From positions 7,760-71,759 of the forward strand of contig CAKZZM010000154.1 in assembly GCA_937885465.1 (NCBI GenBank): 64,000 nucleotides of DNA, given 5' to 3'. Positions within the stretch are counted from its first letter, which is position 1, and each line of letters starts with the position of its first letter. Shown here piece after piece: positions 3,507 to 63,835 of the stretch. This DNA comes from an uncultured Bacteroidales bacterium (GTDB lineage: Bacteria > Bacteroidota > Bacteroidia > Bacteroidales > Paludibacteraceae). Under the pieces are notes generated by a model. It saw only the letters and a list, made by a program, of their open reading frames with translations, was not told the origin of the DNA and did not search any database. The translations under genes were made by a program, and so were the position numbers.

Positions 3507-3635
3507 GTGGAGAACGTCTCCGAACGTTCTTATAAGTGGAGAACGTCTCCGAACGTTCTTATAAGTGGAGAACGTCTTCGAACGTTCTCCACTTTTTTAC
3601 TTCTTTGAGAGACGGTCGAAAAGACCGTCTCTACC
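3507..3635. repeat. RepA x3 (period 29 nt; starts 3507, 3536, 3565) followed by a RepB hairpin (3607-3635)
   Basis: GTGGAGAACGTCTCCGAACGTTC is read directly three times. The third copy is the fully palindromic form GTGGAGAACGTCTTCGAACGTTCTCCAC. It is followed by GAGAGACGGTCGAAAAGACCGTCTCTACC. Confidence 0.95.
3565..3598 (+). terminator. putative intrinsic terminator of clpB formed by a palindromic RepA copy
   Basis: 10-bp stem GTGGAGAACG/CGTTCTCCAC followed by TTTTTT, 74 nt after the clpB stop. Confidence 0.55.
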
Positions 3636-3668
3636 GTCTGCCCGCACTTTTCACTTTTCACTTTTTAA

Positions 3669-3700
3669 TTTGCGTATGTAAAATAAAAGCAGTATCTTTG
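3669..3700 (+). promoter_or_regulatory. Bacteroidetes-type promoter candidate (TTTG-N20-TAtcTTTG)
   Basis: TTTG at 3669-3672 and TATCTTTG at 3693-3700, 29 nt upstream of the ATG at 3729. Matches the known -33/-7 consensus of Bacteroides sigma-A promoters. Confidence 0.5.
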
Positions 3701-3728
3701 CACTTTGACTCAGAAATAAGGCACTGCT

Positions 3729-4673
3729 ATGAAGCGATTATATTTTTTGGTATTATTATCTGTTCTTCTTTGTTTTTCCACTGCTTTTGCTCAGAATTCC
3801 GAGAGCGTATCTTCGCTTGAAGGATTTCGTTTTGAGGTTATAGGCGACACCCTCTTCGTCATTTCTGAAGAGGGGACGGTTATGCCTCACCACTGCGTTT
3901 TTAAGCAGACAGACCGTGAGAATATCTACCGCCGCATCTATCACGACGAGACGGATGATTTGATGGAAGATCATCCGGCTAATGATATCTATTTGAGTAT
4001 CTGGACTCGCGAGCGTGTCAATCCGTACAAGCAATCGGTTGACTCTCTGAAAGATAGTATCTTGATAGACCTTCGCGGGTTTACCTTACCTCACCCGGGC
4101 TATATAACTTCTAAGTTCGGACCTCGACGCTATCGCTACCATTATGGTACCGACCTTAAGTTGCAAACGGGGGACTCTGTTCGTTGTGCTTTTGACGGGC
4201 AAGTGCGTATAGTAGGTTGGGACCCGCGCGGCTACGGACATTATGTTGTGGTGCGCCACGATAATGGTTTAGAAACGGTATATGGTCACTTATCCGCCCC
4301 GTTAGTTGATGAAAATATGCGTATCTATTCAGGGGAAGTGGTAGGATTAGGAGGTAATACGGGACGTTCTACAGGTTCGCATCTGCATTTTGAGTTCCGC
4401 TATCTCGGTAATGCTTTCAATACCGAAAAAATCATTAATTATGAAACGGGTCAGTTGCGTGACTCAACTTATCTCATCACTAAGGACGGCACCTTCGAGC
4501 ACCGCAAGGCTGTCAAGCAACTGGGGAACGCTAAGTATCACACTATTCGTCAGGGCGATACACTTTCAGGTATAGCAAAACGCTACGGCACCTCTGTTCG
4601 TGCTTTATGTAATCTGAACGGCATAAAAGAAACAAAAGTGCTGCAAATAGGGAAGAAGATAAGAGTTAGATGA
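3729..4673 (+). CDS. secreted M23 family metallopeptidase with C-terminal LysM domain
   Basis: Signal peptide MKRLYFLVLLSVLLCFSTAFA. M23 motifs HYGTDLK and GNTGRSTGSHLHFE. C-terminal LysM-like segment HTIRQGDTLSGIAKRYGTSVRALCNLNGI. Confidence 0.9.
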   Translation: MKRLYFLVLLSVLLCFSTAFAQNSESVSSLEGFRFEVIGDTLFVISEEGTVMPHHCVFKQTDRENIYRRIYHDETDDLMEDHPANDIYLSIWTRERVNPYKQSVDSLKDSILIDLRGFTLPHPGYITSKFGPRRYRYHYGTDLKLQTGDSVRCAFDGQVRIVGWDPRGYGHYVVVRHDNGLETVYGHLSAPLVDENMRIYSGEVVGLGGNTGRSTGSHLHFEFRYLGNAFNTEKIINYETGQLRDSTYLITKDGTFEHRKAVKQLGNAKYHTIRQGDTLSGIAKRYGTSVRALCNLNGIKETKVLQIGKKIRVR

Positions 4674-4689
4674 AAGGTGGATTGTGTAA

Positions 4690-5964
4690 ATGGTAAATGA
4701 ACAAGTGGTAAATATAATGGCTCCTGTGGGGAGTTGGGAGAGTTTAGCAGCGGCTTTGAATGCCGGTGCTAATTCTGTTTATTTCGGGATAGAAAAGCTG
4801 AATATGCGTGCGAGGAGTACACTCAACTTCACCACCGCAGACCTTCACGAGATAGTGCGCCGCTGCAAGGAGAGGGGGGTGCAAACTTACCTGACGCTTA
4901 ATACTGTCGTCTATCCTGAAGATATGCAACTGATGCGCGAGATAGTGGATAATGCCAAGGAGGCGGGCGTGGATGCTATCATAGCCTCTGATATTGCGGC
5001 TATGCAATATGCGGTAAGTAAGGATGTGGAGGTGCATCTGTCAACGCAACTGAATATAAGCAATACTGAGGCTTTGCGCTTCTATGCTCAGTTTGCTGAT
5101 GTCGTTGTGTTAGCAAGGGAACTGAATCTTGAGCAGGTGGCTGCTATACATAAAGATATAGTAGAGCAGAATATCCGCGGGCGACACGGCGAACTCGTTA
5201 AGTTAGAGATGTTCTGCCACGGCGCACTCTGTATGGCGGTCAGCGGTAAGTGCTATATGTCGCTGCATGAGAATAATACCTCTGCCAATCGCGGCTCGTG
5301 TGTGCAGATATGCCGCCGAGCATATACGGTGCGAGATAAAGAAACGGGAGATGAACTGACTATTGACAACCAGTATATTATGTCGCCTAAGGACTTGAAG
5401 ACCATTCATTTCCTTAATAAGATATTAGATGCGGGTGTTTCTGTTCTGAAGATTGAGGGGCGTGCCCGCGGACCTGAGTATGTCAAGACCGTTGTTGAGT
5501 GTTACAAAGAGGCTGTGGAGGTATATTATTCTCCACGCGGGGTTGATATCAATGCCCGCATTGCCGATTGGGATTCGCGACTTGCTCGAGTCTTCAATCG
5601 AGGGTGGTGGAACGGCTATTATCTCGGGCAACGACTCGGTGAGTGGACACACGAATACGGCTCGCAGGCGACTGTCAAGAAAGTGTATGCAGGAAAGGTA
5701 ACCAATTATTTCAGGCAAGCAGGAGTGGCTGAGGTTCATGTGGAGGCGTGTGCTATACCCAAAGACGCAGAACTGCTCTTCACGGGTGAGACGACAGGGG
5801 CATACGAGATGAAACTGAGTGATGCGCGTATCTTTGCGCCATTCTCCGATGGCAGACCTTCTAATATACCTATCGATAAACAGCAGGCGGATAAGGGTGA
5901 CTATCTCTCTTTCAAAACAGCTTCCCCCGTCAGGCGAGGCGATAAAGTATTCCTACTAAGGTGA
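4690..5964 (+). CDS. peptidase U32 family protein
   Basis: 424 aa. N-terminus APVGSWESLAAALNAGANSVYFG and the Cys-rich block CHGALCMAVSGKCYMS...CVQICRR are typical of U32 (collagenase-like / YhbU-YegQ type) proteins. The start could instead be the ATG at 4717. Confidence 0.85.
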   Translation: MVNEQVVNIMAPVGSWESLAAALNAGANSVYFGIEKLNMRARSTLNFTTADLHEIVRRCKERGVQTYLTLNTVVYPEDMQLMREIVDNAKEAGVDAIIASDIAAMQYAVSKDVEVHLSTQLNISNTEALRFYAQFADVVVLARELNLEQVAAIHKDIVEQNIRGRHGELVKLEMFCHGALCMAVSGKCYMSLHENNTSANRGSCVQICRRAYTVRDKETGDELTIDNQYIMSPKDLKTIHFLNKILDAGVSVLKIEGRARGPEYVKTVVECYKEAVEVYYSPRGVDINARIADWDSRLARVFNRGWWNGYYLGQRLGEWTHEYGSQATVKKVYAGKVTNYFRQAGVAEVHVEACAIPKDAELLFTGETTGAYEMKLSDARIFAPFSDGRPSNIPIDKQQADKGDYLSFKTASPVRRGDKVFLLR

Positions 5965-6113
5965 GTGGAGAACGCCTCCGAGCGTTCTGAATAGTGTTAG
6001 TAGCGAGGCACTCCTGTGCCTCGTATGAAGCACAGGAGTGCTTCACTACTAGTGGAGAACGCCTCCGAGCGTTCATATCTCTCGTCTTTATAAAGTCGGC
6101 ATTTAATGCCGAC
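5965..6113. repeat. mosaic RepA(5965) - RepH double hairpin (6002-6046) - RepA(6052) - RepD(6075-6113)
   Basis: Both RepA copies are the C:G stem variant GTGGAGAACGCCTCCGAGCGTTC. The RepH hairpins are GAGGCACtcctGTGCCTC and GAAGCACaggaGTGCTTC. RepD ends in the palindrome GTCGGCATTTAATGCCGAC. Confidence 0.95.
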
Positions 6114-6120
6114 ATACAAA

Positions 6121-8324: not shown

Positions 8325-8536
8325 GGTAGAGACGGTGTTCTTCACCGTCTCTCAATAGTGGAGAACGTCTCCGAACGTTTCTATTTCTCGTTTTTATAAA
8401 GTCGGCATTTAATGCCGACATTAGGAGTGGAGAACGTCTCCGAACGTTCAGACTTATTGAAACAGCGTTTAAACGGCATTTAAACGGCGTTGAAAAGTCC
8501 TTAAAAAGAGAGACGGTCGAAATGACCGTCTCTACC
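8325..8536. repeat. mosaic RepB(8325-8355) - RepA(8358) - RepD(8384-8419) - RepA(8427) - RepB(8508-8536)
   Basis: All units read directly. The B-to-A junction TCTCTCAATAGTGGAGAAC is the same as at four other loci. Confidence 0.95.
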
Positions 8537-8549
8537 ATCGACTTCTGGC

Positions 8550-11343: not shown

Positions 11344-12555
11344 ATGACACATTTCACTTATTCAGAGATTCATCAGCAGCCCGAGATGTGGCGCAAAGAG
11401 TTGCAAGTCCTGCTAAGTGCGAAAGCAGAGATAAGTGCGTTCATGCGCAAGTACCTCACTCCCGACACGGACGTTGTGCTGACCGGTGCAGGCACATCGG
11501 CGTTCATTGGGGATGCCATCTGTCCGGTGATGCGCGGTATGTGGCGGAATGTGCGTTCGGTGCCGACAACCGACTTGATTACCCACTCGGAGTATCTGTT
11601 GGACAAGGAGCGTCCGTTGCTGCTGATTAGTTTTGCCCGTTCGGGCAACAGTCCGGAGAGCGTGGGTGCAGTGAACCTTGCGAACAAGTTGTGCAAGAAC
11701 GTGGCGCACATCTACATAACCTGCAACAAGAACGGAAAGCTGGCACAACAAGCAATAGAAAGTGCGGATAGAGCCCTAAAGTCTGAACGTTCGGACTTAT
11801 TAGTGGAGAACGTCTCTGAACGTTCTCAGACGTTCTCCACTATTAAGAAAGTCGAAAGTAACATATTGCTGTTGCTGTTGCCGGAGGAGACGGATGACAA
11901 GAGTTTGGCTATGACGAGCAGTTTCTCAACTATGCTGCTGACGTGCCTGATGCTCGGGCACATCGATACGCTTGAGCAGGATGCCGAGATGATAGAGAAA
12001 GCGGTGAAGAACGCCGAGTGCGTGATAGCCGATTATGAGGACAAGCTGCAAGAGATTGGCAGTCGCAAGTTCGAACGCGGTGTCTTCCTCGGCAGTGGCG
12101 CACTGAAAGGTATCGCCGAGGAATGCCACCTGAAGTTGCAGGAGCTGACGGATGGTGCAGTGGTGTGTAAGTTCGACTCGTTCTTAGGTTTCCGTCACGG
12201 ACCCAAAGCAGTGGTGAACGATAAGTCGATAGTCGTCTATCTGATGACGAACGAGGAGGATGTGATGCGTTACGAGCGCGACCTGATACGTCAGGTGGAC
12301 GGCAACAACAACCCCGTGGCGCAGGTGATTGTTATCTCGGGGCGTGACCCCGAGATGCCGGAGGTGAAAGCTGACCTTGTGGTGAAGATGCCCTACAGCA
12401 AGGCGGAGACGGATTTCTATGGTATAGTGTCGTACGTGTTAGTGGGGCAGCTGTTGGGGTACTACGCATCTCTCGCCCACAGCCTCAATCCCGACGCGCC
12501 ATCCGTCAGCGGGAACATACACCGAGTAGTGGAGGGAGTGACTATCTACGAGTAA
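11344..12555 (+). CDS. agaS: AgaS-type SIS-domain galactosamine-6-phosphate deaminase/isomerase carrying a 32-codon repeat insertion
   Basis: Collinear with E. coli AgaS as I recall it: LTGAGTSAFIGD, VPTTDL, PLLLISFARSGNSPESV, ITCN, AMTSSFS, GFRHGPK, PDAPSVSGNIHRVVEGV. I prefer the ATG at 11344 (MTHFTYSEIHQQPEMW) over the ORF-track start 11278, because the extra 22 codons are RepC/RepG sequence. Confidence 0.85.
   Translation: MTHFTYSEIHQQPEMWRKELQVLLSAKAEISAFMRKYLTPDTDVVLTGAGTSAFIGDAICPVMRGMWRNVRSVPTTDLITHSEYLLDKERPLLLISFARSGNSPESVGAVNLANKLCKNVAHIYITCNKNGKLAQQAIESADRALKSERSDLLVENVSERSQTFSTIKKVESNILLLLLPEETDDKSLAMTSSFSTMLLTCLMLGHIDTLEQDAEMIEKAVKNAECVIADYEDKLQEIGSRKFERGVFLGSGALKGIAEECHLKLQELTDGAVVCKFDSFLGFRHGPKAVVNDKSIVVYLMTNEEDVMRYERDLIRQVDGNNNPVAQVIVISGRDPEMPEVKADLVVKMPYSKAETDFYGIVSYVLVGQLLGYYASLAHSLNPDAPSVSGNIHRVVEGVTIYE
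11764..11859. repeat. 96-nt composite repeat (RepC-like, RepA, partial inverted RepA, RepG) in frame inside agaS
   Basis: Encodes [32 protein letters not shown]. It is bounded by the direct hexamer GAAAGT (11758-11763 and 11854-11859), exactly 96 nt apart. Confidence 0.85.
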
Positions 12556-13868: not shown

Positions 13869-14020
13869 TCCGGAGGGTCCGGAGATTCCGGAAAGTCCGA
13901 AAAGTCCGGAGATTCCGGAAAGTCCGGAAAGTCCGGAAAGTCCGAAAAGTCCGGAAAGTCCGAAGATTCCGGAAAGTCCGAAGATTCCGGAAAGTCCGAA
14001 CGCTCGGAGGCGTTCTCCAC
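13869..14020. repeat. 15 tandem 9-nt units (TCCGGAAAG and variants, 13869-14003) running into an inverted RepA (13998-14020)
   Basis: Units counted one by one. The array starts at the base after the gatZ-like stop codon and ends 10 nt before the esterase ATG. Confidence 0.95.
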
Positions 14021-14029
14021 TATTCTGAT

Positions 14030-15432: not shown

Positions 15433-16410
15433 ATGAAGCAGTTTGATATCATCGCCTTAGGCGAGTTGAATGTGGATTTGATACTCAATCAGATAGATGG
15501 TTTTCCTGAAGTAGGTAAGGAGAAATTTTTGAAGCAGATGACCCTGACCTTAGGTAGCAGTACCGCTATCTTTGCTGCCAATGCCGCTGCCTTAGGTGCC
15601 AAGGTGGCGTTCTGCGGAATGATAGGCAACGATAGTTTCGGCGACCTCGTAGAAACAAGTCTGCAAAAGAAAGGTGTGGACACTCGTTTCCTTATTCGGC
15701 AAGATAAGTACGCCACGGGGGCAACAATATGCATGAGTTATGACGAGGATCGTGCCAATCTTACCTATCAAGGGGCAATGGACTATATGTCGCTCGCAGA
15801 TATTAACCCCGAAGTGTTTAAGGTGGCGAAACATATTCATATATCATCCATCTTTATGCAAAGCGGCATACGCCGCGATATTGTGAAGATTCTCAATATC
15901 TGCAAAGAGAATGGCATCACCACCTCGCTCGACAGTCAGTGGGATCCGACCGAGAAGTGGGACATTAACCTGCAAGAAGTACTGCCACTCGTTACTTTAT
16001 TTATGCCCAACGAGACCGAACTGAAGTTCCTTACGAAGAGTGAGACTTTAGAAGAAGCGATAGAGAAAATTCGTCCATATACCAACGCTGCTGTTATAAA
16101 GTGTGGCAGCCGCGGCTCGATACTTATTCGTAAGGGTGAATTGCGGGACTCAGGAGAGCTTCAAACCTTTCCTGACAGAGTGCAAGAGGCGTTGCTTAAC
16201 ACTAATGTGGTGGATTGTATCGGTGCAGGTGACTCGTTCAATGCAGGGTTTATCGCTCGTTTCGCGGCAGGCGATGCCCTTGACCTGTGTCAGCAGTACG
16301 GCAATATGACCGGTGCTGTGAACACTACCGCCGCAGGCGGAACAGCAGCCTTCACCTCACGAGAGGAAGTAGAACGCATCGGACGAGAACGATTTGGCTG
16401 GGAGAAATAG
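15433..16410 (+). CDS. PfkB (ribokinase) family sugar kinase
   Basis: 325 aa. N-terminal GELNVDL and C-terminal VVDCIGAGDSFNAGF (PfkB signature 2). The start is 2 nt after the esterase stop. Confidence 0.85.
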   Translation: MKQFDIIALGELNVDLILNQIDGFPEVGKEKFLKQMTLTLGSSTAIFAANAAALGAKVAFCGMIGNDSFGDLVETSLQKKGVDTRFLIRQDKYATGATICMSYDEDRANLTYQGAMDYMSLADINPEVFKVAKHIHISSIFMQSGIRRDIVKILNICKENGITTSLDSQWDPTEKWDINLQEVLPLVTLFMPNETELKFLTKSETLEEAIEKIRPYTNAAVIKCGSRGSILIRKGELRDSGELQTFPDRVQEALLNTNVVDCIGAGDSFNAGFIARFAAGDALDLCQQYGNMTGAVNTTAAGGTAAFTSREEVERIGRERFGWEK

Positions 16411-16431
16411 TGGAGAACGTCTCCGAACGTT
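16410..16431 (+). repeat. RepA copy whose TAG provides the pfkB stop codon
   Basis: GAG AAA TAG TGGAGAACGTCTCCGAACGTT. The TAG at 16408-16410 is the 5-prime TAG of the extended RepA consensus. Confidence 0.9.
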
Positions 16432-16509
16432 TGGTAGTAGCGTTGTCAATTACGCCGAATATTATTCGGCAGCCCCTTCATAAATAGCGTAAGCGCTTCG
16501 TAAATAATT

Positions 16510-19218
16510 ATGAAATATATGATGCACATACTGTTGATTGTTGCAGCCATGGCAACGGAGGTGTCAGGGGCGTCGTGGTATGTGCGGACTGATGGTTTGG
16601 ACGGCAATGACGGCAAGAGTTGGGAGACGGCGCAGTCAACGATACAGTTGGGTATTGACAACTGTCGCGTGGGCGATACCTTATACATAGCCGAGGGCGT
16701 GTATCATGAGGGCATTGTGTTGAAAGACGGCATCGCCATCATCGGCGGTTGTGCGGCAGGTGAGTACGGCACCCGCAAATATCCAACGTTCGATAGTGGA
16801 GAACGTCTCCGAACGTTCTCAGACGTTCTCCACTCAGGCGGCAGAACTATCTTGGATGGTACGGGGTTAGGCACACGGCTTATCAGTTGCGAGCAAGACT
16901 GCCATCGTCCGACCTTGGTGCAGGACCTTATATTGCAAAATGCGCGTCATAGTCAGCGTGGCGGTGGCGCATGGCTACGTGGCAAGGTGACGATGCGACG
17001 ATGTGTAGTGCGCGGTTGCAGCGGTACGTTGTGCGGCGGCGTGCTGATTAAAGGTGACCTGCCCGAATCGTCTGCCCTTGGTGCCCGATTAGAAGACTGC
17101 CTTGTGCATAACTGCACGGCTACCGGTCATGAGTGGCCGGATGCCGGCGGTGTGGCGAACTTCGACGGCACACTGGTTCATTGCACGATAGCGAACAACT
17201 ACGGCGACCGCTATGGCGGCATACACAGCGAGAGTTCGGTGTATGACTGCACGATGTGGGGCAATAGGAACGAATACGGTTTTGTAGATCCGACGAATTA
17301 CGTGTCGGACGAGAGTGAGTCCGGCATGAGCCGTGCTGACGAGGGGTTCGAACAGCAGTTTTTCGTTTATCCGTGGTTGAGTGAGCAGAATGAGGCAACA
17401 GCCGGTCCGCATTTCCGTGACCCCGCCACATTTGCAGGAGTGCCGACGAATAAGGCAGAGGAAGATATAATGCAGGCGGCAGACTATAGTATAGGTGAGC
17501 CTGCGCATCGCATAGAGAAAATGCCGCCTGCCGTTCCCCGTGCCGATAATAGAAATAGAAAAACTATCTCGTCCGAGAATTTAGAATATACAGTTCCGTC
17601 ATATATGTCTTTTTTGGTGGATAGTACTGCGACACTTGTGAGTAAGGAAGCACCTTATTGTATTGCTGCGCAGATCAATGGAGACCCGCGCAAACGTATG
17701 GCGTTCTGCTGGTTTACAAATGAAGGTGTTACGCGGGGAGAGGTGCAGTTGTTAGCGAAGAAAGATGCTACGGTAGCAGATTTTGAGACGAGTTTTTCAG
17801 TGGAGAATGTCTCCGAACGTTCACAAGTGGAGAACGTCTCCGAACGTCTGGCGGTAGAGACGGTGTTTTCCACCGTCTCTCAAATAGTGGAGAACGCCTC
17901 CGAACGTTCACAAGTGGAGAACGCCTCCGTAGCGCAAACGGTACGTAGCGTAAGCACTTCGTACTTGGTACCTGCCTCTCCTACTACAACTCCGCCTTTG
18001 CACTATGCTATATCTTCGTCAGGCATACTGAATAAGGCAAATATCAGCAAGAATACGGCATTCCGCTATGTCAGTCATAAGGCACTTGCCGACGATCTGC
18101 AACCCAGTACCGACTATTCGTGGCGATGCGGATATGAAGGACATTTTTCGGAAATTTTCCATTTCCGTACTGCTGACAACCGACAAAAAGATTTTTCGTT
18201 TGTCTATATGACGGATAGTCATATTCACAATCAGGAGTATATCGATGCAACAAGGCAGTGTGCGGAAGCGGTAGCGAGAAATGAGAGAGATGCGCGATTT
18301 TGCGTCTTCCCTGGTGATTTCGTAGATACCGGTACGGAGAACAACAGTGAGTGGGAGTGGGAGAGATGGTTCGAAGAAGCAATGAAACCTGTCCTTCGTC
18401 AGATGCCGCTTGTGCCGACCGATGGCAACCACGACGATTCACCACTGCTGAACTATACGTATCACTTCAATACTGATACGACGTTCAACATGACGACGCA
18501 GGTGCGTCCGCAGTTTGCGGGCATCAACTACAGCTTCACGTACGGCGATATGCAGTTGATCGCCTTCTCCGAGCAGGATTTTTGGCGTGGCGAGTACGAT
18601 TATTCCGCTCTTACCTCCGAGTATCTCGAGCGCGATTTGGGCGGTTGGATACATCGGCAGGTGGAAAAGGAGAAAAATGTGAAGTGGAGAGTCGGCTTAG
18701 TGCATAAGAATCTCTTCTCGGGTTCGGATCATCAGCGTGATAAGGAAACGCCACTCTTGCGTGCTACTCTTCTGCCGGTGATGAGAGATTGTCATATCGA
18801 CCTTTTATTGCAGGGACACGACCACACTTACGAAGTGATAGGACCCGTTGATCCGGATACTAAGAAACCTATTCTGTCTGCTATCTCGAATCAAGAGACG
18901 GTACCTGTTGATGCGGTCAGGAATATAACCGGCAAGAAAGACGGCACATACGATGTCAGCAGCGGAACGCTTTATTTTATAGGCGCGACTTGTGGCGCGA
19001 AGAGATATACGCCGCTCAAGCGCGAAGAGATGGACGCGAGCAAGCATATTCATCAGGTGGATAATTACTTTGACCTCTTTACCGGAATGTTCGGTCAACC
19101 CGGAGCACCTTCTTACACGAGAGTGACGGTGAAAAAAGATTACCTGTTGCTTGAATCGTTCAATGTTCTGCCGAATGGCAAGACGGAGCTGTTCAACACC
19201 CTGAAGATCGTTAAATAA
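16510..19218 (+). CDS. secreted beta-helix + purple-acid-phosphatase-like metallophosphoesterase, paralogue 1 (two in-frame repeat insertions)
   Basis: Signal peptide, then a right-handed beta-helix type N-terminus (SWYVRTDGLDGNDGKSWETAQSTIQ). PAP-N-like domain, then the metallophosphoesterase motifs MTDSH, PGDF, DGNHD, VHKNLF, QGHDH. Confidence 0.8.
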   Translation: MKYMMHILLIVAAMATEVSGASWYVRTDGLDGNDGKSWETAQSTIQLGIDNCRVGDTLYIAEGVYHEGIVLKDGIAIIGGCAAGEYGTRKYPTFDSGERLRTFSDVLHSGGRTILDGTGLGTRLISCEQDCHRPTLVQDLILQNARHSQRGGGAWLRGKVTMRRCVVRGCSGTLCGGVLIKGDLPESSALGARLEDCLVHNCTATGHEWPDAGGVANFDGTLVHCTIANNYGDRYGGIHSESSVYDCTMWGNRNEYGFVDPTNYVSDESESGMSRADEGFEQQFFVYPWLSEQNEATAGPHFRDPATFAGVPTNKAEEDIMQAADYSIGEPAHRIEKMPPAVPRADNRNRKTISSENLEYTVPSYMSFLVDSTATLVSKEAPYCIAAQINGDPRKRMAFCWFTNEGVTRGEVQLLAKKDATVADFETSFSVENVSERSQVENVSERLAVETVFSTVSQIVENASERSQVENASVAQTVRSVSTSYLVPASPTTTPPLHYAISSSGILNKANISKNTAFRYVSHKALADDLQPSTDYSWRCGYEGHFSEIFHFRTADNRQKDFSFVYMTDSHIHNQEYIDATRQCAEAVARNERDARFCVFPGDFVDTGTENNSEWEWERWFEEAMKPVLRQMPLVPTDGNHDDSPLLNYTYHFNTDTTFNMTTQVRPQFAGINYSFTYGDMQLIAFSEQDFWRGEYDYSALTSEYLERDLGGWIHRQVEKEKNVKWRVGLVHKNLFSGSDHQRDKETPLLRATLLPVMRDCHIDLLLQGHDHTYEVIGPVDPDTKKPILSAISNQETVPVDAVRNITGKKDGTYDVSSGTLYFIGATCGAKRYTPLKREEMDASKHIHQVDNYFDLFTGMFGQPGAPSYTRVTVKKDYLLLESFNVLPNGKTELFNTLKIVK
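16796..16833 (+). repeat. 38-nt full palindromic RepA in frame in paralogue 1
   Basis: GTGGAGAACGTCTCCGAACGTTCTCAGACGTTCTCCAC is translated as [13 protein letters not shown]. It is absent at the aligned position of paralogue 3 (…MYETIIDGTDIG…). Confidence 0.9.
17800..17972 (+). repeat. about 174-nt composite block RepA-RepA-RepB-RepA-RepA(truncated)-RepE in frame in paralogue 1
   Basis: RepA at 17800, 17827, 17887 and 17914; RepB at 17852-17883; RepE-like CGTAGCGTAAGCACTTCGTACTTGGTAC. Translated as [58 protein letters not shown]. Confidence 0.9.
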
Positions 19219-19373
19219 AGTACCAAGTGATAAAGTACCAAGTGACGAAGTACCAAGTACCGCTTACGCTAAGGAGACGTTCTCCACTGCACTTATATCT
19301 CTCGTCTTTATAAAGTCGGCATTTAATGCCGACCAAACGCTAAAAGTCAAGTGGAGAACGTCTCCGAACGTTC
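19219..19373. repeat. mosaic RepE - partial inverted RepA - RepD (19295-19333) - RepA (19351-19373)
   Basis: Read directly between paralogues 1 and 2. Confidence 0.9.
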
Positions 19374-21131: not shown

Positions 21132-21186
21132 CAAAGTACCAAGTGACGAAGTACGATGTACGATACCGTTCGGAGACGTTCTCCAC
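21131..21186. repeat. RepE block plus truncated inverted RepA
   Basis: CAAAGTACCAAGTGACGAAGTACGATGTACGATACCGTTCGGAGACGTTCTCCAC. Confidence 0.85.
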
Positions 21187-21213
21187 TATTATAATCCTAA
21201 ATATACATTTATT

Positions 21214-24450: not shown

Positions 24451-24473
24451 GAACGTTCGGAGACGTTCTCCAC
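24451..24473 (-). repeat. inverted RepA immediately after the stop codon
   Basis: TAA GAACGTTCGGAGACGTTCTCCAC. Confidence 0.95.
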
Positions 24474-24525
24474 TGGTAGGAAAAAAATACAATTAACCAT
24501 ATTTATTAACTAAAATTCTAATAGT

Positions 24526-26433: not shown

Positions 26434-26442
26434 GCAGACTTA

Positions 26443-40939: not shown

Positions 40940-40955
40940 GTAATTATACAAAATA

Positions 40956-41047: not shown

Positions 41048-41080
41048 AGACTTAATATTAACTCATAAATTATAATCATT

Positions 41081-42895: not shown

Positions 42896-42906
42896 TTAGA
42901 ATGTTA

Positions 42907-42988
42907 GTGGAGAACGTCTTAGAACGTTCGGAGACGTTCTCCACTATTTTATCGCGGACGAGCCGTCCGCGTCCCAGACGTTCTCCAC
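42907..42988. repeat. full palindromic RepA (42907-42944) followed by RepF (hairpin GCGGACGagccGTCCGC) ending in a RepA tail
   Basis: GTGGAGAACGTCTTAGAACGTTCGGAGACGTTCTCCAC, then TATTTTATCGCGGACGAGCCGTCCGCGTCCCAGACGTTCTCCAC. The same A-F unit is at 46749-46815. Confidence 0.92.
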
Positions 42989-43093
42989 TATTGTTTTTTA
43001 GGTTGATAAAGTTTAAGTTGATGATTGTGTTTTATTTTTTAGAAGGCTGCTCGATGTGAATCGGGCAGCCTGCGTATTTAAGTGAGAACGTTT

Positions 43094-46690: not shown

Positions 46691-46815
46691 GTGAAGCTCT
46701 CCTATGCTTCATGCGAGGCATGGGAGTGCCTCGCTACTACAACTACCGGAACGTTCGGAGACGTTCTCCACTATTTTATCGCGGACGAGCCGTCCGCGTC
46801 CCAGACGTTCTCCAC
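46691..46815. repeat. inverted RepH (46691-46737) - inverted RepA (46749-46771) - RepF (to 46815)
   Basis: Read directly upstream of smpB. This sequence explains the spurious 5-prime extension of the ORF-track entry 46704..47309. Confidence 0.9.
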
Positions 46816-52081: not shown

Positions 52082-52208
52082 ATAAGAACTCTCCCCTTTG
52101 TCGGGCGGAGGACTTATTCTTTCTTCTATATAACAAATGTGTTATACACCTTACTAAAGTTTCCTACTTATTTTGCCAAAAATTTTAATTTTTGGATAAT
52201 TGTGGGTA

Positions 52209-52260
52209 GTAGCGAACGTCTCCGAACGTTCAACGTAGTGGAGAACGTCTCCGAACGTTC
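52209..52260 (+). repeat. two RepA copies (52209, 52238)
   Basis: GTAGCGAACGTCTCCGAACGTTC and GTGGAGAACGTCTCCGAACGTTC. Confidence 0.95.
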
Positions 52261-52477: not shown

Positions 52478-52574
52478 GAACGTTTACAGACGTTCTCCAC
52501 AGCACTTATATCCGTCTTTATAAAGTCGGCATTGAATGCCGACTAAAGTCCGAACGTTCAGAGACGTTCTTCAC
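52478..52574. repeat. inverted RepA (52478) - RepD (52505-52543) - inverted RepA (52552-52574) overlapping the 3-prime end of the HMA gene
   Basis: Read directly. The stop codon of the minus-strand HMA gene (52558-52560) lies in the RepA loop. Confidence 0.92.
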
Positions 52575-52977
52575 TTTGCGGAATGGAGGCTCCGGAATCG
52601 GCATCGGTTTCCGTTTGTGTGTTCAGTTTTTGCTCTTTGGCAGGCGAAGTCGCGCTTGCATTTGTCTTGCTTTGTGTCAGTGCTTCTGTGGCGGCGGTAT
52701 TGACTGTGGCGGGTTTGCCGATGGCTTTGAACGCCTCTTGCAGGGTTCCGATATCGGTTTTGTTAGCATCATAGACAATGGTTACCTGCTTTTTGTCAAG
52801 GTCGCAGATGAGGTCTTTCACGCCTTTCTCAAAAGCGATATTTTTCTCTATTTTTTTGATGCAGGCATCGCAGTGTAGCTCTACATCGAACACGATTGTC
52901 CGTTTGTCTGTCTTAGCGGCAAAAAGAGTGCTAAGAGATAGGGCAATAGCACAGAGTGTTGTAAGGAAATAACGCAT
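52558..52977 (-). CDS. secreted heavy-metal-associated (HMA) domain protein
   Basis: Signal peptide MRYFLTTLCAIALSLSTLFA. HMA fold with a CxxC metal site (VELHCDACIKKIEKNI). Low-complexity tail. The last residues (SEERL) are encoded by RepA. Confidence 0.8.
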   Translation of the reverse strand: MRYFLTTLCAIALSLSTLFAAKTDKRTIVFDVELHCDACIKKIEKNIAFEKGVKDLICDLDKKQVTIVYDANKTDIGTLQEAFKAIGKPATVNTAATEALTQSKTNASATSPAKEQKLNTQTETDADSGASIPQSEERL

Positions 52978-52998: not shown

Positions 52999-53051
52999 GA
53001 ACGTTCAGAGACGTTCTCCACTACCGTTGAACGTTCAGAGACGTTCTCCAC
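52999..53051 (-). repeat. two inverted RepA copies (period 30) between the TonB-dependent receptor and HMA genes
   Basis: GAACGTTCAGAGACGTTCTCCAC at 52999 and 53029. Confidence 0.95.
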
Positions 53052-53127
53052 TACGGCTGTGTTCAGTTTCTAAAATCCGTTAGTATCCGTGTGGAATAAA
53101 TAGTTAAAGTAATTTTTCGAAGTAACC

Positions 53128-57856: not shown

Positions 57857-58035
57857 GTAGAAAGTCGATAGTAAAAAGTCGATAGTAAAAGTCGAAAGCC
57901 CCGCAAACGCAAATCGTGTTCCGGCTTTCGACTTTCTTAATAGTGGAGAACGTCTCCGAACGTTCAAACTTTCAACTTTCAAACTTTCAACTTTCAACTT
58001 TCGGCTTTCAACTTTCAACTTTCAACTTTCAACTT
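57857..58035. repeat. RepG words and hairpin (57891-57932), RepA (57943-57965), then about 10 tandem heptamers ACTTTCA
   Basis: Read directly. GTCGAAAGCC...GGCTTTCGAC forms a 10-bp stem after the TonB stop. Confidence 0.9.
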
Positions 58036-59375: not shown

Positions 59376-59378
59376 TCT

Positions 59379-61510: not shown

Positions 61511-61691
61511 TCTTCGCTGGTAGTGGAGAACGTCTCCGAACGTTCGCAAGCGGTACTTGGTCACTTGGTACTTGGTACTTAGTACTTGGTCACTTGGTGT
61601 TTTTTTTGCTTGCGTAACCCGATTTTTATTATTAATTTTGCAAACTCTTCGCTGGTAGTGGAGAACGTCTCCGAACGTTCGCAAGCGGTAC
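61511..61691 (+). repeat. 46-nt perfect direct repeat (61511-61556 and 61646-61691), each containing RepA, flanking a RepE block and a -7 box
   Basis: TCTTCGCTGGTAGTGGAGAACGTCTCCGAACGTTCGCAAGCGGTAC occurs twice, 135 nt apart. Confidence 0.95.
61633..61640 (+). promoter_or_regulatory. -7 box TAatTTTG for the acyl-CoA ligase gene
   Basis: Exact match 100 nt upstream of the ATG at 61740. The second 46-nt repeat copy would lie in the 5-prime UTR. Confidence 0.4.
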
Positions 61692-63395: not shown

Positions 63396-63430
63396 TGAGT
63401 GCTTCGTATTATGCGTGGGGGTGACATTTA

Positions 63431-63453
63431 GTGGAGAACGTCTCCGAACGTTC
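63431..63453 (+). repeat. RepA copy
   Basis: GTGGAGAACGTCTCCGAACGTTC. Confidence 0.95.
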
Positions 63454-63464
63454 AGTGGTAAACG

Positions 63465-63496
63465 TAGGGTAACATTGTGTTGCCCTATTTTTTTTG
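63465..63496 (+). terminator. intrinsic terminator after the acyl-CoA ligase gene
   Basis: TAGGGTAACattgtGTTGCCCTA followed by T9. Confidence 0.7.
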
Positions 63497-63568
63497 CAAA
63501 GTGGCATTATTGAAAATCAGTTTGTTGCAAAGAAAGTTCATTTTTTTTCAAAAAAAATCGGGTAAAAA

Positions 63569-63600
63569 TTTGGTGGGTTTGAAAAAAAGTAGTAATTTTG
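63569..63600 (+). promoter_or_regulatory. promoter candidate TTTG-N20-TAatTTTG with no ORF downstream
   Basis: TTTG at 63569-63572 and TAATTTTG at 63593-63600. Confidence 0.5.
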
Positions 63601-63606
63601 CACTCG

Positions 63607-63835
63607 CTTTTGAAAAGAGAGGCACTCGAATGTCAGTGTGACGATAGCAGTCAGTGAGATGACGAAATAGTAGAGAACATCTCCGAACGTTCAACAACAG
63701 GAGTGTTTTCGGAGTAAAAAGCGAGCCACAGTGGTGGCACCCGTACTGAAGCGCTGGAAACCGCACGATATATGCTGAGGTGTACATCGGGAAAACAGCA
63801 GGCCGACGAACTACTCAACTACGGTAGTTTTTTTT
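63607..63835 (+). ncRNA. candidate about 230-nt noncoding transcript or riboswitch-like leader (unidentified class)
   Basis: Lies between the promoter candidate and a hairpin AACTAC...GTAGTT + T8 (63810-63835). No plus-strand ORF over 25 codons. Long-range pairing CTCGCTTTT (63603-63611) / AAAAGCGAG (63716-63724), and hairpin GCCACagtgGTGGC. Contains a degenerate RepA (63670-63692). Confidence 0.3.

What the first reader, a model, noticed from the sequence alone, without database searches (positions are those of the whole stretch)
3507..63692. RepA: a ~25-nt hairpin repeat at about one copy per kb, with compensatory stem changes and a stop-free core in all six frames
The consensus is TAGTGGAGAACGTCTCCGAACGTTC, in either orientation. 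I count roughly 55-60 recognisable copies by eye (not an exhaustive computation). Example starts: 3507, 3536, 3565, 5965, 6052, 8358, 8427, 11803, 13998, 16410, 16796, 17800, 17827, 17887, 19351, 24451, 26443, 26498, 26736, 26766, 28044, 28074, 30620, 32490, 35680, 35710, 40956, 41025, 41837, 42907, 43281, 43308, 43899, 46749, 49764, 50036, 50096, 52209, 52238, 52478, 52552, 52999, 53029, 57943, 61523, 61658, 63431. The core folds as GAACGT-loop-ACGTTC. The loop varies (CTCCGA, CTCTGA, CTGAGA, CTTCGA, CTTAGA) while the stem is kept. The innermost stem pair switches from T:A to C:G jointly in at least eight copies (GAACGCCTCCGAGCGTTC at 5965, 6052, 13998, 26766, 28044, 28074, 30620, 40956), with single-change intermediates at 26736 and 17887. 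The 23-nt core GTGGAGAACGTCTCCGAACGTTC contains no stop codon in any of its six frames; only the flanking TAG closes one frame. No transposase or integrase gene is in the window, so the elements look non-autonomous (REP/MITE-like). I am not aware of such a family being described for Bacteroidales, but I cannot search.
Basis: partly seen in the sequence, partly recalled or inferred. Interest (0 to 1): 0.8.

Follow-up and report, generated by a model that had tools for sequence, protein, structure and literature searches.

The report
REP-like hairpin repeat invading Bacteroidales genes
A 25-base hairpin repeat of the REP type peppers this uncultured Bacteroidales genome about once per kilobase, lying mostly just after stop codons but also in frame inside real genes such as lpxB, and near-identical strains differ by gain or loss of whole repeat units.

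Summary
The 23-nt core has 58 hits (≤3 mismatches) in the window against 0 expected. About 580 copies lie in ~954 kb of the same genome drawn from other contigs.

The unit is a sharply bounded 25-mer: TA-GTGG-A-[GAACGT-CTCCGA-ACGTTC]. That is a GT[AG]G-tagged small hairpin, which is the REP signature. It occurs solo, in head-to-tail arrays (period 26-30), as 38-nt "double-foot" palindromes, and in mosaics with two other hairpin modules.

About 20% of copies, or more, sit in frame inside genes. LpxB carries three lineage-specific insertions, which AlphaFold models at low confidence (two below pLDDT 50). AgaS, a U32 peptidase, a SusD signal peptide and others also carry copies. Three peptide frames dominate.

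Strains 99.4-99.8% identical differ almost only by whole-module indels, including +69 and −60 nt inside lpxB.

The T:A/C:G "covariation" marks two subfamilies, not eight independent events. Six-frame stop-freeness is true of 14% of random 23-mers.

No RAYT or other transposase was found in ~1 Mb (~35% of the genome). No copies were found in 80 relatives.

Verdict: a new member of a known kind (REP). It is unusual for its tandem organisation and its active intragenic load. The mobiliser is unresolved.

The parts
3505..3592 (+). Three tandem RepA units (period 29). The last extends to a 28-nt palindrome followed by TTTTTT. It starts 14 nt after the stop of the ClpB-like gene. A RepB hairpin follows at 3603-3635.
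   Evidence: terminator-like hit 3563-3594
5963..6115 (+). Two C:G-subfamily RepA units (5965, 6052) plus RepC (6079-6115). The first abuts the stop of U32 peptidase gene 4690-5964. The spacer is convergent with dnaK.
8325..8539 (+). Mosaic RepB - RepA (8358) - RepC - RepA (8427) - RepB, lying between dnaK and the 691-aa gene.
11801..11842 (.). Full 'double-foot' palindrome (RepA + and − sharing the central GAACGTTC). It lies in frame inside the AgaS-like SIS gene 11278-12555. It accounts for a ~31-aa insertion (aa 160-193) relative to PDB 3odp.
13998..14022 (-). Solo C:G RepA at the end of a GGAAAGTCC-type tandem array (13887-13997), intergenic. The array length differs by 36 nt in another strain.
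16408..16432 (+). Solo RepA whose TAG is the stop codon of the PfkB kinase gene 15433-16410.
16794..16835 (.). Double-foot palindrome in frame in ORF 16510-19218 (aa ~95-109, peptide [13 protein letters not shown]).
17798..17932 (+). RepA, RepA, RepB, RepA and a partial RepA, in frame in ORF 16510-19218 (aa ~430-475), upstream of the purple-acid-phosphatase domains. Synteny with another strain's contig breaks at 17810, inside the first unit.
19268..19373 (+). Partial RepA(−), RepC and RepA (19351), intergenic.
21164..21188 (-). Solo RepA, intergenic. Strain L006 lacks this unit: 60 nt of spacer including it are replaced there by an unrelated 14 nt (scored as a 46-nt deletion).
24451..24475 (-). 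Solo RepA immediately after the stop at 24450. Two other strains have a second unit here (+27 nt).
26441..26560 (.). RepA (26443), a RepB-like hairpin, RepA (26498) and RepA(−) (26536). The cluster starts 10 nt after the stop at 26433.
26734..26788 (+). Two tandem units (period 30; one is the T..G intermediate, one is C:G) at the N-terminus of ORF 26718-28043. Whether they are coding is ambiguous.
28042..28229 (.). Two tandem C:G units (28044, 28074), RepA(−) at 28112, and two RepC units. The cluster starts right after the stop at 28043. One RepC (47 nt) is missing in other strains.
30618..30642 (+). One C:G-type unit in frame after the lipoprotein signal peptide of the melibiase-like gene 30544-32496 (…CQPKADSGERLRAF…). 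Other strains carry 2 or 3 units (+27, +54 nt), giving proteins of 650, 659 and 668 aa.
32488..32512 (+). Solo unit overlapping the stop codon of gene 30544-32496.
35645..35738 (-). RepC plus two tandem RepA(−) units (period 30) inside the n-region of the SusD lipoprotein signal peptide, read in the basic frame NVLRRSPL.
40954..41054 (+). RepA-RepC-RepA composite starting 15 nt after the EamA gene stop. Strain L004 carries an extra RepC+RepA here (+69 nt).
41837..41861 (-). Solo unit in frame just after the signal peptide of ORF 41771-42895 (…[15 protein letters not shown]…).
42905..42992 (.). Double-foot palindrome (42907/42922), a TCGCGGACGAGCCG module and a partial RepA, in the convergent spacer after the stop at 42895.
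43086..43110 (-). Unit overlapping the stop of U32 peptidase gene 43094-45073(−). Strain L004 has an additional C:G-subfamily unit here (+33 nt). That extra unit is not a copy of its neighbour.
43279..43378 (.). RepA, a double-foot palindrome and RepB, in frame in U32 peptidase 43094-45073(−) (aa ~566-598).
43899..44031 (.). A double-foot palindrome plus three tandem units (period 30), in frame between the U32 and DUF3656 domains (aa ~348-392, SAVANVSERS ×3).
46749..46815 (-). RepA(−), a TCGCGGACGAGCCG module and a partial RepA, upstream of the true smpB start (~46857). Intergenic.
49762..49786 (+). LpxB insertion 1: a solo unit in frame (EWRTSENV). In strains L004 and L005 this site carries a RepA-RepC-RepA composite (+69 nt). 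That composite shares private variants with insertion 3.
50034..50118 (+). LpxB insertion 2: RepA-RepB-RepA in frame (~46 aa absent from all homologues). 60 nt of it are absent in strains L004 and L005. AlphaFold pLDDT is below 50 here.
50431..50524 (+). LpxB insertion 3: a diverged RepA-RepC-RepA in frame (~47 aa absent from homologues). AlphaFold pLDDT is below 50 here.
52207..52260 (+). Two tandem units (period 29; the first has a GTAG head), intergenic beside the tRNA gene at 52008-52081(−).
52478..52576 (-). RepA-RepC-RepA composite (−) overlapping the stop of the HMA-domain gene 52558-52977(−).
52999..53053 (-). Two tandem units (period 30), intergenic. Strain L004 has five more (+150 nt).
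57941..57965 (+). Solo unit embedded in CTTTCAA-type tandem oligomers, 85 nt after the tonB stop.
61521..61680 (+). Two units (61523, 61658) with identical 12-nt 5' and 11-nt 3' flanks, indicating a local 135-nt duplication. They lie after the recG stop (61496).
63429..63453 (+). Solo unit 34 nt after the stop at 63395.
63668..63692 (+). Solo diverged unit with a GTAG head, intergenic.

Best explanation
RepA is the 25-nt unit TA-GTGG-A-(GAACGT-CTCCGA-ACGTTC) of a REP-type repeat family. It is a small hairpin with an unpaired GT[AG]G head. The family behaves as non-autonomous selfish DNA in an uncultured Paludibacteraceae-related Bacteroidales from anaerobic bioreactors.

Shown:
- It is genome-wide at ~0.6-1 copy per kb.
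- It occurs solo, in head-to-tail arrays, as double-foot palindromes, and in mosaics with two other hairpin modules.
- Near-identical strains differ by gain or loss of whole modules.
- Copies pile up just downstream of stop codons, preferentially in the sense orientation.
- About 20% or more lie in frame inside genes, where they add short hydrophilic peptides at positions absent from homologues. In LpxB these positions are modelled at low confidence.

Inferred:
- New sites are seeded by a hairpin-recognising single-strand DNA enzyme encoded elsewhere in the genome. The likeliest candidate is a RayT/TnpAREP-type Y1 HUH transposase, of a kind known in Bacteroidetes.
- Once a unit is present, slippage and ectopic recombination or gene conversion between units expand, contract and copy arrays and composites.
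- Selection then removes copies that bring stops or disruptive peptides. The survivors are those after stop codons, in linkers and loops, and in three tolerated reading frames.
For: Reality and dispersal:
- 58 hits against 0 expected in the window.
- 577-588 copies in 954 kb of other contigs of one bin plus the window.
- The same elements appear in independent assemblies from several samples.

REP anatomy:
- The 25-nt boundaries are sharp. Position 3 is G in 523 copies and A in 43, i.e. GTGG or GTAG.
- The hairpin GAACGT/ACGTTC is the minimum-free-energy fold. Two subfamilies both keep a perfect inner pair: 483 T:A and 72 C:G against 21 mixed.
- 38-nt GTGG…CCAC palindromes fold at −15.3 kcal/mol as DNA. 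[quoted passage not shown]

Location:
- 339 copies are intergenic although only ~10% of the DNA is non-coding.
- 159 of 547 gene 3' ends have a copy within 200 nt, and 89 within 30 nt. In 11 cases the TAG of TAGTGG is the stop codon. The first downstream copy is in the sense orientation in 72 cases and antisense in 23.

Intragenic copies:
- 113 copies lie deep inside ORFs.
- LpxB has three insertions exactly at RepA islands, absent from all ~370-aa homologues.
- AgaS has a ~31-aa insertion relative to 3odp.
- In the LpxB model the only segments with pLDDT below 50 are insertions 2 and 3.
- Frame use is skewed: VENVSERS 47, ERSETFST 36, SGERLRTF 19, the other three frames 11 in total.

Ongoing dynamics:
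- All indels longer than 3 nt between strains 99.4-99.8% identical are repeat modules.
- The four indels inside coding sequence are multiples of 3 (69, 60, 27, 54 nt).
- The extra composite at lpxB site 1 in two strains carries the private variants of the site-3 composite 670 nt away.
- The extra unit at 43082 belongs to a different subfamily from its neighbour.

Lineage specificity:
- No copies in the syntenic contigs of the nearest LpxB relative.
- No copies in 1.3 Mb from 80 related species.

Precedent:
- GT[AG]G REPs, including a GTGG-headed family, and in-frame intragenic REPs are documented (PMC3733652).
Against: - No RayT/IS200-type gene was found in ~1.06 Mb of this genome (about 35% of a ~2.6 Mb bin). 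The searches used a motif regex, tblastn, an HMM of solved Y1 transposases, and an HMM of 120 Bacteroidetes-type RayT homologues. None of the 31 genes outside the window (34 including three window genes) flanked by RepA on both sides looks like a transposase.
- The arrangement is atypical for REP/REPIN. There are 243 head-to-tail neighbour pairs, 29 tail-to-tail and 3 head-to-head. In most REP families head-to-tail dimers are rare (PMC3733652).
- The stem is 6 bp with a 6-nt loop. This is shorter than the ≥7-bp descriptor used to call canonical REPs (PMC6006769). The single hairpin is weak: −4.6 kcal/mol as DNA, z = −1.1.
- No insertion into a previously repeat-free site was caught between strains. 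Every polymorphism lies at or beside an existing unit.
Confidence: 0.62

Rival explanations
1. A transposase-free modular minisatellite. RepA and its companion modules spread and change only through replication slippage, unequal crossing-over and ectopic gene conversion between existing units, with no dedicated enzyme. The GTGG head and the hairpin are incidental, or matter only by promoting slippage and stalling.
For: - Head-to-tail arrays dominate: 243 of 275 close neighbour pairs, with periods 27, 28 and 30.
- All strain polymorphisms are whole-unit steps at existing units.
- The lpxB site-1 composite is a copy of the site-3 composite, anchored on a pre-existing RepA.
- No RayT or IS-like gene was found in ~1 Mb.
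- The simple tandem oligomers nearby behave the same way.
Against: - It does not explain how units first reached hundreds of unrelated sites, including protein loops where homologues have no sequence at all.
- It does not explain the sharp 25-nt boundaries with unrelated flanks.
- It does not explain why 152 of 588 copies are isolated.
- Both subfamilies keeping a perfect stem, and the canonical GT[AG]G head, point to recognition of a structure.
Confidence: 0.2
2. Primarily a functional cis-element: an mRNA 3'-end stabiliser or terminator, or a protein-binding site. Selection places it after genes, and the intragenic copies are by-products.
For: - 29% of gene 3' ends have a copy within 200 nt.
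- There is a 72:23 sense-orientation bias, and 11 copies supply the stop codon.
- Divergent spacers are poorer in copies (1.9/kb) than unidirectional (3.75/kb) or convergent (3.4/kb) spacers.
- A few palindromic copies followed by a T-run look like intrinsic terminators, e.g. 3563-3594.
Against: - The consensus has no T-tract. Terminator-like sites are not clearly above shuffles: 18 against 17.1, and 28 against 18.9.
- The single hairpin is weak as RNA (−6.6 kcal/mol, z = −0.5).
- Copy number at a given gene end varies between near-identical strains (1 or 2 units at 24450; 2 or 7 at 52996).
- 20-35% of copies are inside ORFs.
- Relatives do without the element entirely.
Confidence: 0.12
3. A DNA uptake signal sequence (like Neisseria DUS or Haemophilus USS), enriched by biased uptake and recombination.
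For: - The density is about 1 per kb.
- It is present in coding regions in tolerated frames.
- Some copies form inverted pairs after genes.
Against: - The intragenic copies are insertions of extra residues, not substitutions within conserved sequence.
- Tandem arrays and mosaics with other modules are not features of uptake sequences as I know them (general knowledge, not tested).
- There is a strong excess in the ~10% non-coding DNA.
- There is an orientation bias relative to genes.
Confidence: 0.03
4. An assembly or binning artefact, or contaminating synthetic sequence.
For: The window comes from a metagenome-assembled genome. One synteny break falls inside a repeat.
Against: - The same elements sit at the same sites in SPAdes, MEGAHIT and Logan assemblies of different samples. 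The differences between them are clean in-frame unit differences and SNPs.
- The copies are diverged.
- ORFs remain open through them.
Confidence: 0.01

Closest known systems
GTAG-superfamily REPs (repetitive extragenic palindromes) and their RayT/TnpAREP Y1 transposases, especially the 'double foot' REPs of TnpAREP subclass 2.4 reported in Cyanobacteria and Bacteroidetes (PMC2817692, PMC3733652, PMC6006769)
   Same: - It is a 20-40-nt imperfect palindrome with an unpaired 5' GT[AG]G 1 nt from the stem.
- It has hundreds of copies and is species-specific.
- Copies are enriched just after stop codons, and some supply TAG as the stop.
- Subfamilies differ at paired stem positions.
- GTGG…CCAC palindromic forms exist.
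- In-frame intragenic copies occur.
- It forms mosaic clusters with other motifs, as BIMEs do.
   Different: - The stem is only 6 bp with a 6-nt loop.
- Head-to-tail arrays dominate over inverted dimers.
- The intragenic share is very high (≥19%).
- No cognate RayT gene has been found so far, in ~35% of the genome.
Intragenic REPs of Opitutus terrae (GTAG-20, mostly GTGG-headed) and Thauera sp. MZ1T (GTAG-1, short 5-bp stems, arrays) (PMC3733652)
   Same: - The head is GTGG.
- Many copies lie inside ORFs, including repeat clusters encoding tens of residues.
- Stems are short and the organisation is array-like.
   Different: - The phylum and the sequence differ.
- Here strain-level in-frame gain and loss is documented, including in an essential gene.
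- I could not compare copy densities.
Rickettsia palindromic elements (RPE), mentioned in PMC3733652; in-frame insertion is known from the older literature (my knowledge)
   Same: - Palindromic repeats are inserted in frame into housekeeping genes.
- They add peptide segments that leave the fold intact.
   Different: - RPE-1 elements are ~100-150 bp single units and carry a CGTC tag. RepA is a 25-nt GTGG-tagged unit that also forms arrays and is mostly intergenic.
- The host here is free-living, not an obligate intracellular bacterium.
BrickBuilt minisatellite/MITE of Porphyromonas gingivalis (PMC4596501)
   Same: - The host is also a member of the Bacteroidales.
- It has ~23-nt units in tandem arrays.
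- It is species-restricted.
   Different: - BrickBuilt has 19 copies in strain ATCC 33277 and is always intergenic.
- Its units have no spacers and lie within a leader/tail MITE with inverted ends.
- I made no sequence comparison, and BrickBuilt shows no in-frame coding copies.
Small dispersed repeats (SDR) of heterocyst-forming cyanobacteria (Elhai et al. 2008; from my own knowledge, paper not retrievable here)
   Same: - They are ~21-27-nt imperfect palindromes.
- They are found between and inside genes and nested in other repeats.
- No mobiliser is known.
   Different: The phylum and sequence differ. I could not check the details against the paper.

Membership tests
REP, GTAG superfamily | Short (20-40 nt) imperfect palindrome forming a stem-loop | tested here: met
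   25-nt unit. The 6-bp stem GAACGT/ACGTTC is the MFE fold.
REP, GTAG superfamily | Unpaired GT[AG]G tetranucleotide 0-2 nt 5' of the stem foot (PMC6006769, PMC3733652) | tested here: met
   Positions 1-4 are G 572, T 571, G 523 / A 43, G 565 of 577 copies. One nucleotide (A) separates the head from the stem.
REP, GTAG superfamily | Basal stem of ≥7 fully paired nt and a loop of 2-5 nt (the RNAMotif descriptor of PMC6006769) | tested here: not met
   The stem is 6 bp with a 6-nt loop on the GTGG strand. On the complementary strand it is 7 pairs with a 4-nt loop only if one G·T pair is allowed. Di Nocera et al. accept 5-9-bp stems (PMC3733652).
REP, GTAG superfamily | High copy number (>100 per genome), dispersed | tested here: met
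   577-588 copies in 954 kb across ~70 contigs.
REP, GTAG superfamily | Mostly extragenic, close to 3' ends of ORFs, poorer in divergent spacers | tested here: met
   339 of 588 copies lie in the ~10% non-coding DNA. 89 of 547 gene ends have a copy within 30 nt. Density is 1.9/kb in divergent spacers against 3.4-3.75/kb elsewhere.
REPIN / BIME | Units mainly as inverted pairs (head-to-head or tail-to-tail) at a fixed distance | tested here: not met
   243 head-to-tail, 29 tail-to-tail (16 of them the overlapping double-foot form) and 3 head-to-head pairs.
REP-RAYT system | A single-copy RayT/TnpAREP gene flanked by the cognate REPs (REPtron) | tested here: inconclusive
   No hit in ~1.06 Mb (about 35% of the bin). 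The best E-value was 0.64 with an HMM of 120 Bacteroidetes-type RayT homologues. The same HMM recovers the RayT-like gene in relative L140 at 6e-104. The rest of the genome could not be fetched.
MITE | Terminal inverted repeats plus target-site duplication; derived from an IS | tested here: not met
   Solo units have no TIRs. The 5' TA is conserved but the 3' flank is not. Only the 38-nt palindromic form has 13-nt inverted arms. No related IS or multi-copy gene was found in 954 kb.
Rickettsia palindromic elements | ~100-150-bp palindromic element inserted in frame in protein genes; CGTC-tagged (PMC3733652) | tested here: not met
   In-frame insertion is met. Unit length and tag are not: the unit is 25 nt with a GTGG head.
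DNA uptake sequences (DUS/USS) | Short motif enriched by substitution, not insertion; no arrays | tested here: not met
   Copies in LpxB and AgaS are extra residues relative to homologues. Tandem arrays are common.
CRISPR array | Repeats separated by unique spacers of similar length, at one or a few loci | tested here: not met
   Units in arrays are separated by only 3-7 nt and are dispersed at hundreds of loci.

The most novel reading that the evidence does not exclude
RepA and its companion modules form a currently active repeat system with no RayT. It spreads by a mechanism not yet described for REPs, such as hairpin-primed or recombination-driven copying between units. It routinely writes and erases short peptide segments in essential proteins (LpxB, a SusD signal peptide, lipoprotein linkers) on the time-scale of strain divergence. 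On this reading it is a source of protein length variation rather than just tolerated junk.
Probability: 0.2. Interest if true: 0.7.

Novelty: new member of a known kind. Interest (0 to 1): 0.5.

Why it matters
If this is right, the organism carries one of the densest REP-type loads seen in Bacteroidales, and strains can be compared directly. Whole units come and go inside an essential lipid-A gene, in a SusD signal peptide and in lipoprotein linkers among strains about 99.5% identical.

That makes three questions testable in natural populations:
- How REP-like elements seed new sites.
- Which reading frames and protein positions tolerate them.
- Whether they need a RayT at all.

There is also a practical point. 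The stop-free core makes naive ORF callers extend or fuse genes in such genomes. The repeats are likely to break assemblies and create rearrangement points.

Tried and rejected
- **Rfam.** A gathering-threshold scan of the window found only a tRNA.
- **Core 23-mer in genome contigs.** The scan returned no stretch and a row-limit notice. The source genome appears not to be retrievable there, so the organism is known only through relatives (DnaK 86-92% identical to Paludibacteraceae/Bacteroidales MAGs).
- **Viral contigs.** No match.
- **Exact look-ups.** Look-ups of the ClpB-like ORF and of P0001 found nothing. The cluster look-up gave no accession or name.
- **RepA peptides as a protein query.** A query of concatenated RepA-encoded peptides found nothing, because only one candidate shared indexed words. 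That search was wasted.
- **RayT searches.** Regexes for the YxxNP and HUH motifs, tblastn and phmmer with E. coli RayT (identical to 4er8) and IS200, and two HMMs were all negative. My first HUH regex would have missed the Bacteroidetes type (NHIHGII), so I replaced it with the HMM.
- **REPtron signature.** Genes flanked by RepA on both sides number 34. All look like housekeeping genes.
- **dnaK synteny.** A comparison around dnaK in relatives was not possible because synteny is not conserved.
- **Repeated 12-mers in relatives.** These turned out to be local arrays (CRISPR, protein repeats), not dispersed REPs.
- **PDB for the U32 peptidase.** No homologue, so its insertions rest on Pfam domain spacing and the peptide sequence only.
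- **Intrinsic terminator.** Rejected as the general role of RepA.
- **Uptake sequence, CRISPR, artefact.** All rejected; see the rival explanations and membership tests.

Full report

Yes. The core GTGGAGAACGTCTCCGAACGTTC has 58 matches at ≤3 mismatches in the 64-kb window, against none in 100 shuffles. At ≤5 mismatches there are 62.

Pfam scans of the window's main ORFs show housekeeping genes and a polysaccharide-utilisation locus, with no transposase or integrase. The housekeeping genes include a ClpB-like gene, DnaK, SmpB, iPGM, LpxB and RecG. Rfam finds only a tRNA.

The 23-nt core is indeed stop-free in six frames. So are 14% of random 23-mers of this window, so the property is not remarkable on its own.

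**2. Anatomy of the unit**

I aligned 577 copies from the window plus 107 other stretches of the same genome. Information content is high from the TA before the core to the last C, and drops to background on both sides. The unit is therefore a 25-mer, TAGTGGAGAACGTCTCCGAACGTTC.

- Positions 1-4 read GTGG in 523 copies and GTAG in 43.
- One A follows, and then the hairpin GAACGT-CTCCGA-ACGTTC.
- That hairpin is the predicted fold of the single strand, but it is weak: −4.6 kcal/mol as DNA.
- An alternative hairpin, GGAGA-ACG-TCTCC, is broken by the common CTGAGA loop variant and is not conserved.

Many copies are halves of a 38-nt perfect palindrome, GTGGAGAACGTCT-CC-GAACGTTC-TC-AGACGTTCTCCAC. 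It folds strongly, at −15.3 kcal/mol as DNA.

**3. Arrangement**

Neighbouring copies are mostly head-to-tail. There are 243 such pairs, with periods 27, 28 and 30. There are 29 tail-to-tail pairs, of which 16 are the overlapping palindrome, and only 3 head-to-head pairs. A quarter of copies (152 of 588) are isolated.

RepA also forms mosaics with two other hairpin modules:
- RepB, GGTAGAGACGGTCGAAAAGACCGTCTCTCAA, which has a GTAG head.
- RepC, CTCTCGTCTTTATAAAGTCGGCATTTAATGCCGAC.

Examples are RepA-RepC-RepA at 8356-8449, 40954-41047, 50431-50524 and 52478-52576, and RepA-RepB-RepA at 17827-17909 and 50034-50118.

**4. The stem "covariation"**

At the innermost pair the counts are T:A 483, C:G 72, T:G 12 and C:A 9 (Fisher p ≈ 3e-68). 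The copies are replicas, so this shows two subfamilies that both keep a perfect stem. It does not show many independent compensations.

Other pairs show mainly one-sided changes, for example 56 G·T at the outer pair, with only a few double changes. The pattern fits propagation of hairpin-competent variants. It does not prove selection on each copy.

**5. Where the copies lie**

I used a greedy longest-ORF map of 954 kb, in which 90% of the sequence is covered by ORFs. The copies fall as follows:

| Location | Copies |
|---|---|
| Intergenic | 339 |
| Deep inside ORFs (≥100 codons upstream, ≥30 downstream) | 113 |
| First 100 codons of an ORF | 98 |
| At or near gene ends | 38 |

Gene 3' ends are favoured:
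- 159 of 547 have a copy within 200 nt, and 89 within 30 nt.
- In 11 cases the TAG of TAGTGG is the stop codon.
- The first downstream copy is in the sense orientation in 72 cases and antisense in 23.

Divergent spacers hold about half the density of unidirectional or convergent spacers.

RepA is not a generic intrinsic terminator. The consensus has no T-run, and terminator-like sites are not clearly above shuffles. A few palindromic copies followed by T-runs do look like terminators, for example 3563-3594.

**6. Copies inside genes are real in-frame insertions**

*LpxB.* The protein here is 474 aa and is present as such in public protein data. All other homologues are ~365-390 aa. The alignment shows three insertions of about 17, 46 and 47 residues, exactly at the RepA islands 49762-49786, 50034-50118 and 50431-50524. 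An AlphaFold2 model is confident overall (pLDDT 82.7, pTM 0.81). The only segments below 50 are residues 262-291 and 403-435, which are insertions 2 and 3. There is also a dip at insertion 1.

*AgaS-like isomerase.* It has a ~31-residue insertion relative to PDB 3odp, at the palindrome at 11801-11842.

*Further examples*:
- The U32 peptidase 43094-45073 carries SAVANVSERS three times between its two domains.
- ORF 16510-19218 has two clusters.
- The melibiase-like lipoprotein has a unit just after its signal peptide.
- The SusD signal peptide carries RepC plus two RepA units in its n-region.

*Frame use among the 113 deep copies* is very uneven:

| Frame (peptide) | Copies |
|---|---|
| VENVSERS | 47 |
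| ERSETFST | 36 |
| SGERLRTF | 19 |
| Other three frames combined | 11 |

One of the rare frames is closed by the TAG of the unit. The skew looks like a selective filter on what a protein can carry.

**7. The elements are changing now**

Independent assemblies from bioreactor samples are 99.4-99.8% identical to the window. They come from ERZ842392, ERZ842383, ERZ922529 and a Logan assembly. Every indel longer than 3 nt is a repeat module or a simple tandem oligomer:
- +69 nt (RepC+RepA) at 40973.
- +33 nt at 43082.
- +150 nt (five units) at 52996.
- +27 nt at 24450.
- +27 or +54 nt at 30617, inside the lipoprotein gene (650, 659 or 668 aa).
- −47 nt (RepC) at 28144.
- Inside lpxB, +69 nt at 49779 and −60 nt at 50033 (477 against 474 aa).

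The four coding indels are all multiples of three. Nine of the sixteen non-coding indels are not.

Two events are more than slippage:
- The extra unit at 43082 is of the C:G subfamily, beside a T:A-type neighbour.
- The composite present at lpxB site 1 in two strains carries the private variants of the site-3 composite 670 nt downstream. Examples are ATAAC, TATAATG, CATTAAATG and GCGGAGCTCG. It is therefore a copy of that composite, anchored on a pre-existing RepA.

I did not catch any insertion into a repeat-free site. Synteny with one contig (NODE_121) ends inside the RepA copy at 17810. This is either a rearrangement at a repeat or an assembly chimera.

**8. Distribution**

Almost all come from one consecutively numbered set of contigs (FLNU01002328-2544), a bin of roughly 2.6 Mb by my interpolation of contig lengths. 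None of them overlaps the window.

Five contigs of different GC content from the same project carry one exact copy or a variant array.

The nearest LpxB relative has no RepA, RepB or RepC in its syntenic 14-kb contigs. Nor do 1.3 Mb around dnaK from 80 related species, whose DnaK is 74-92% identical. The closest of these are labelled Paludibacteraceae or Bacteroidales MAGs. The expansion is therefore lineage-specific.

**9. Looking for a mobiliser**

In about 1.06 Mb of this genome I found no Y1/HUH transposase. The sample comprised the window, strain contigs and the FLNU stretches. Methods and results were:
- Motif regexes.
- tblastn and phmmer with E. coli RayT and IS200. My RayT sequence proved identical to PDB 4er8.
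- An HMM of solved Y1 transposases.
- An HMM of 120 homologues of a RayT-like protein that I found in relative L140. It gave a best E-value of 0.64 in the RepA genome against 6e-104 for L140 itself.

The L140 protein itself carries an in-frame tandem insertion (LSLPITQLP ×4). This echoes the published observation that REPs insert in frame within TnpAREP genes of the subclass common in Bacteroidetes (PMC6006769).

None of the 34 genes flanked by RepA on both sides looks like a transposase. There are no multi-copy IS-like genes in 954 kb. About two thirds of the genome was not available, so the RayT question stays open.

**10. Comparison with what is known**

REPs are 20-40-nt palindromes with an unpaired GT[AG]G head. 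They are present in hundreds of copies and concentrated after genes, and they sometimes supply the TAG stop. They are thought to be mobilised by RayT/TnpAREP (PMC2817692, PMC3733652, PMC6006769).
- A GTGG-headed family exists in Opitutus terrae.
- In-frame intragenic REPs encoding up to 43-82 residues have been described in O. terrae, Thauera and Rickettsia (PMC3733652).
- TnpAREP subclasses 2.4 and 2.6 are reported as abundant in Bacteroidetes. Subclass 2.4 is associated with "double foot" GT[AG]G…C[TC]AC REPs (PMC6006769).

RepA meets the head, hairpin, copy-number and location criteria.

It departs from the canonical picture in several ways:
- The stem is short, at 6 bp.
- Head-to-tail arrays dominate, whereas such dimers are rare in most REP families (PMC3733652).
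- The intragenic share is high.
- No RayT has been found yet.

It is not a MITE, RPE, uptake sequence or CRISPR array by the tests listed. BrickBuilt of P. gingivalis is another Bacteroidales repeat with 23-nt tandem units. It has 19 copies in strain ATCC 33277, is strictly intergenic and lies within a MITE (PMC4596501).

**11. Verdict**

The finding is real and more interesting than described, but the kind is known. I file it as a new member of the REP kind.

- I hold with good confidence that it works like a REP: a selfish hairpin repeat filtered by selection into gene ends and permissive protein loops.
- I hold with only moderate confidence that a RayT-type enzyme seeds new sites.
- Recombination between units clearly contributes to current dynamics.
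- A purely recombinational, RayT-less system remains the most novel reading that the data allow.

Noticed in passing
window 17810 (ORF 16510-19218); L001 1-350: Synteny with the 99.5%-identical contig ENA ERZ842392 NODE_121 stops inside a RepA copy. The other contig continues into unrelated UmuC/YolD-like coding sequence. This is either a rearrangement at a repeat or an assembly chimera.
   Followed up: partly
window 3603-3635, 8325-8355, 8507-8539, 43349-43378, 47302-47335, 51860-51947: RepB, a second hairpin repeat with a GTAG head (GGTAGAGACGGTCGAAAAGACCGTCTCTCAA; 10-bp stem, −11.3 kcal/mol as DNA). About 10 copies in the window and about 20 in 954 kb. It occurs alone or between RepA units.
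   Followed up: partly
window 6079-6115, 19300-19335, 28144-28229, 35645-35680, 40980-41022, 50455-50500, 52510-52550: RepC, a third module (CTCTCGTCTTTATAAAGTCGGCATTTAATGCCGAC). It usually sits between two RepA units. One copy is present or absent between strains.
   Followed up: partly
window 10813-10923, 13887-13997, 32527-32572, 48916-48956, 51801-51835, 57968-58035, 19218-19265, 26648-26679: Intergenic tandem arrays of 7-14-nt oligomers (AAAGTTG, GGAAAGTCC, GTACATT(GTC), AAGTACCAAGTGAC). These also change copy number between strains by 7, 14, 15, 18, 22, 36 or 41 nt. Their role is unknown.
   Followed up: no
RepA and RepB consensus: Both modules contain CGTCTC/GAGACG, a known type IIS restriction recognition site. 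I did not test whether this is more than coincidence.
   Followed up: no
L051:1798-1820, L056:9700-9722, L084:6857-6879, L102:394-416, L098:1076-1164: Exact single RepA copies occur in contigs of different GC content (41-51%) from the same bioreactor metagenomes. One contig carries a 33-nt-period array of a variant. This suggests other hosts or horizontal spread. L056 also has GTAGTGG-type words and heptamer arrays of a similar style.
   Followed up: partly
L140:6495-7178 (−) and L140:12678-14166: A related Bacteroidales MAG encodes a RayT-like Y1 protein interrupted in frame by LSLPITQLP ×4. A cluster of nine GGTCGGAATGAC-containing repeats lies 5 kb away.
   Followed up: partly
window 35625-35740: The SusD lipoprotein signal peptide carries RepC plus two RepA units in its n-region, in the otherwise rare basic frame (NVLRRSPL). 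No alternative start codon lies downstream, so the insertion appears to be translated.
   Followed up: partly
window 61511-61556 and 61646-61691: Two RepA units after recG share identical flanks on both sides, indicating a local ~135-nt duplication rather than two independent insertions.
   Followed up: no
window 1377-3491: The ClpB-like ATPase is 704 aa and its first AAA domain starts near residue 27, so it seems to lack the usual N-terminal Clp domain. The same gene length is called in another strain (L001).
   Followed up: no
The dnaK search found no hit above 92% identity. The window's own genome seems not to be retrievable from that collection.
   Followed up: no
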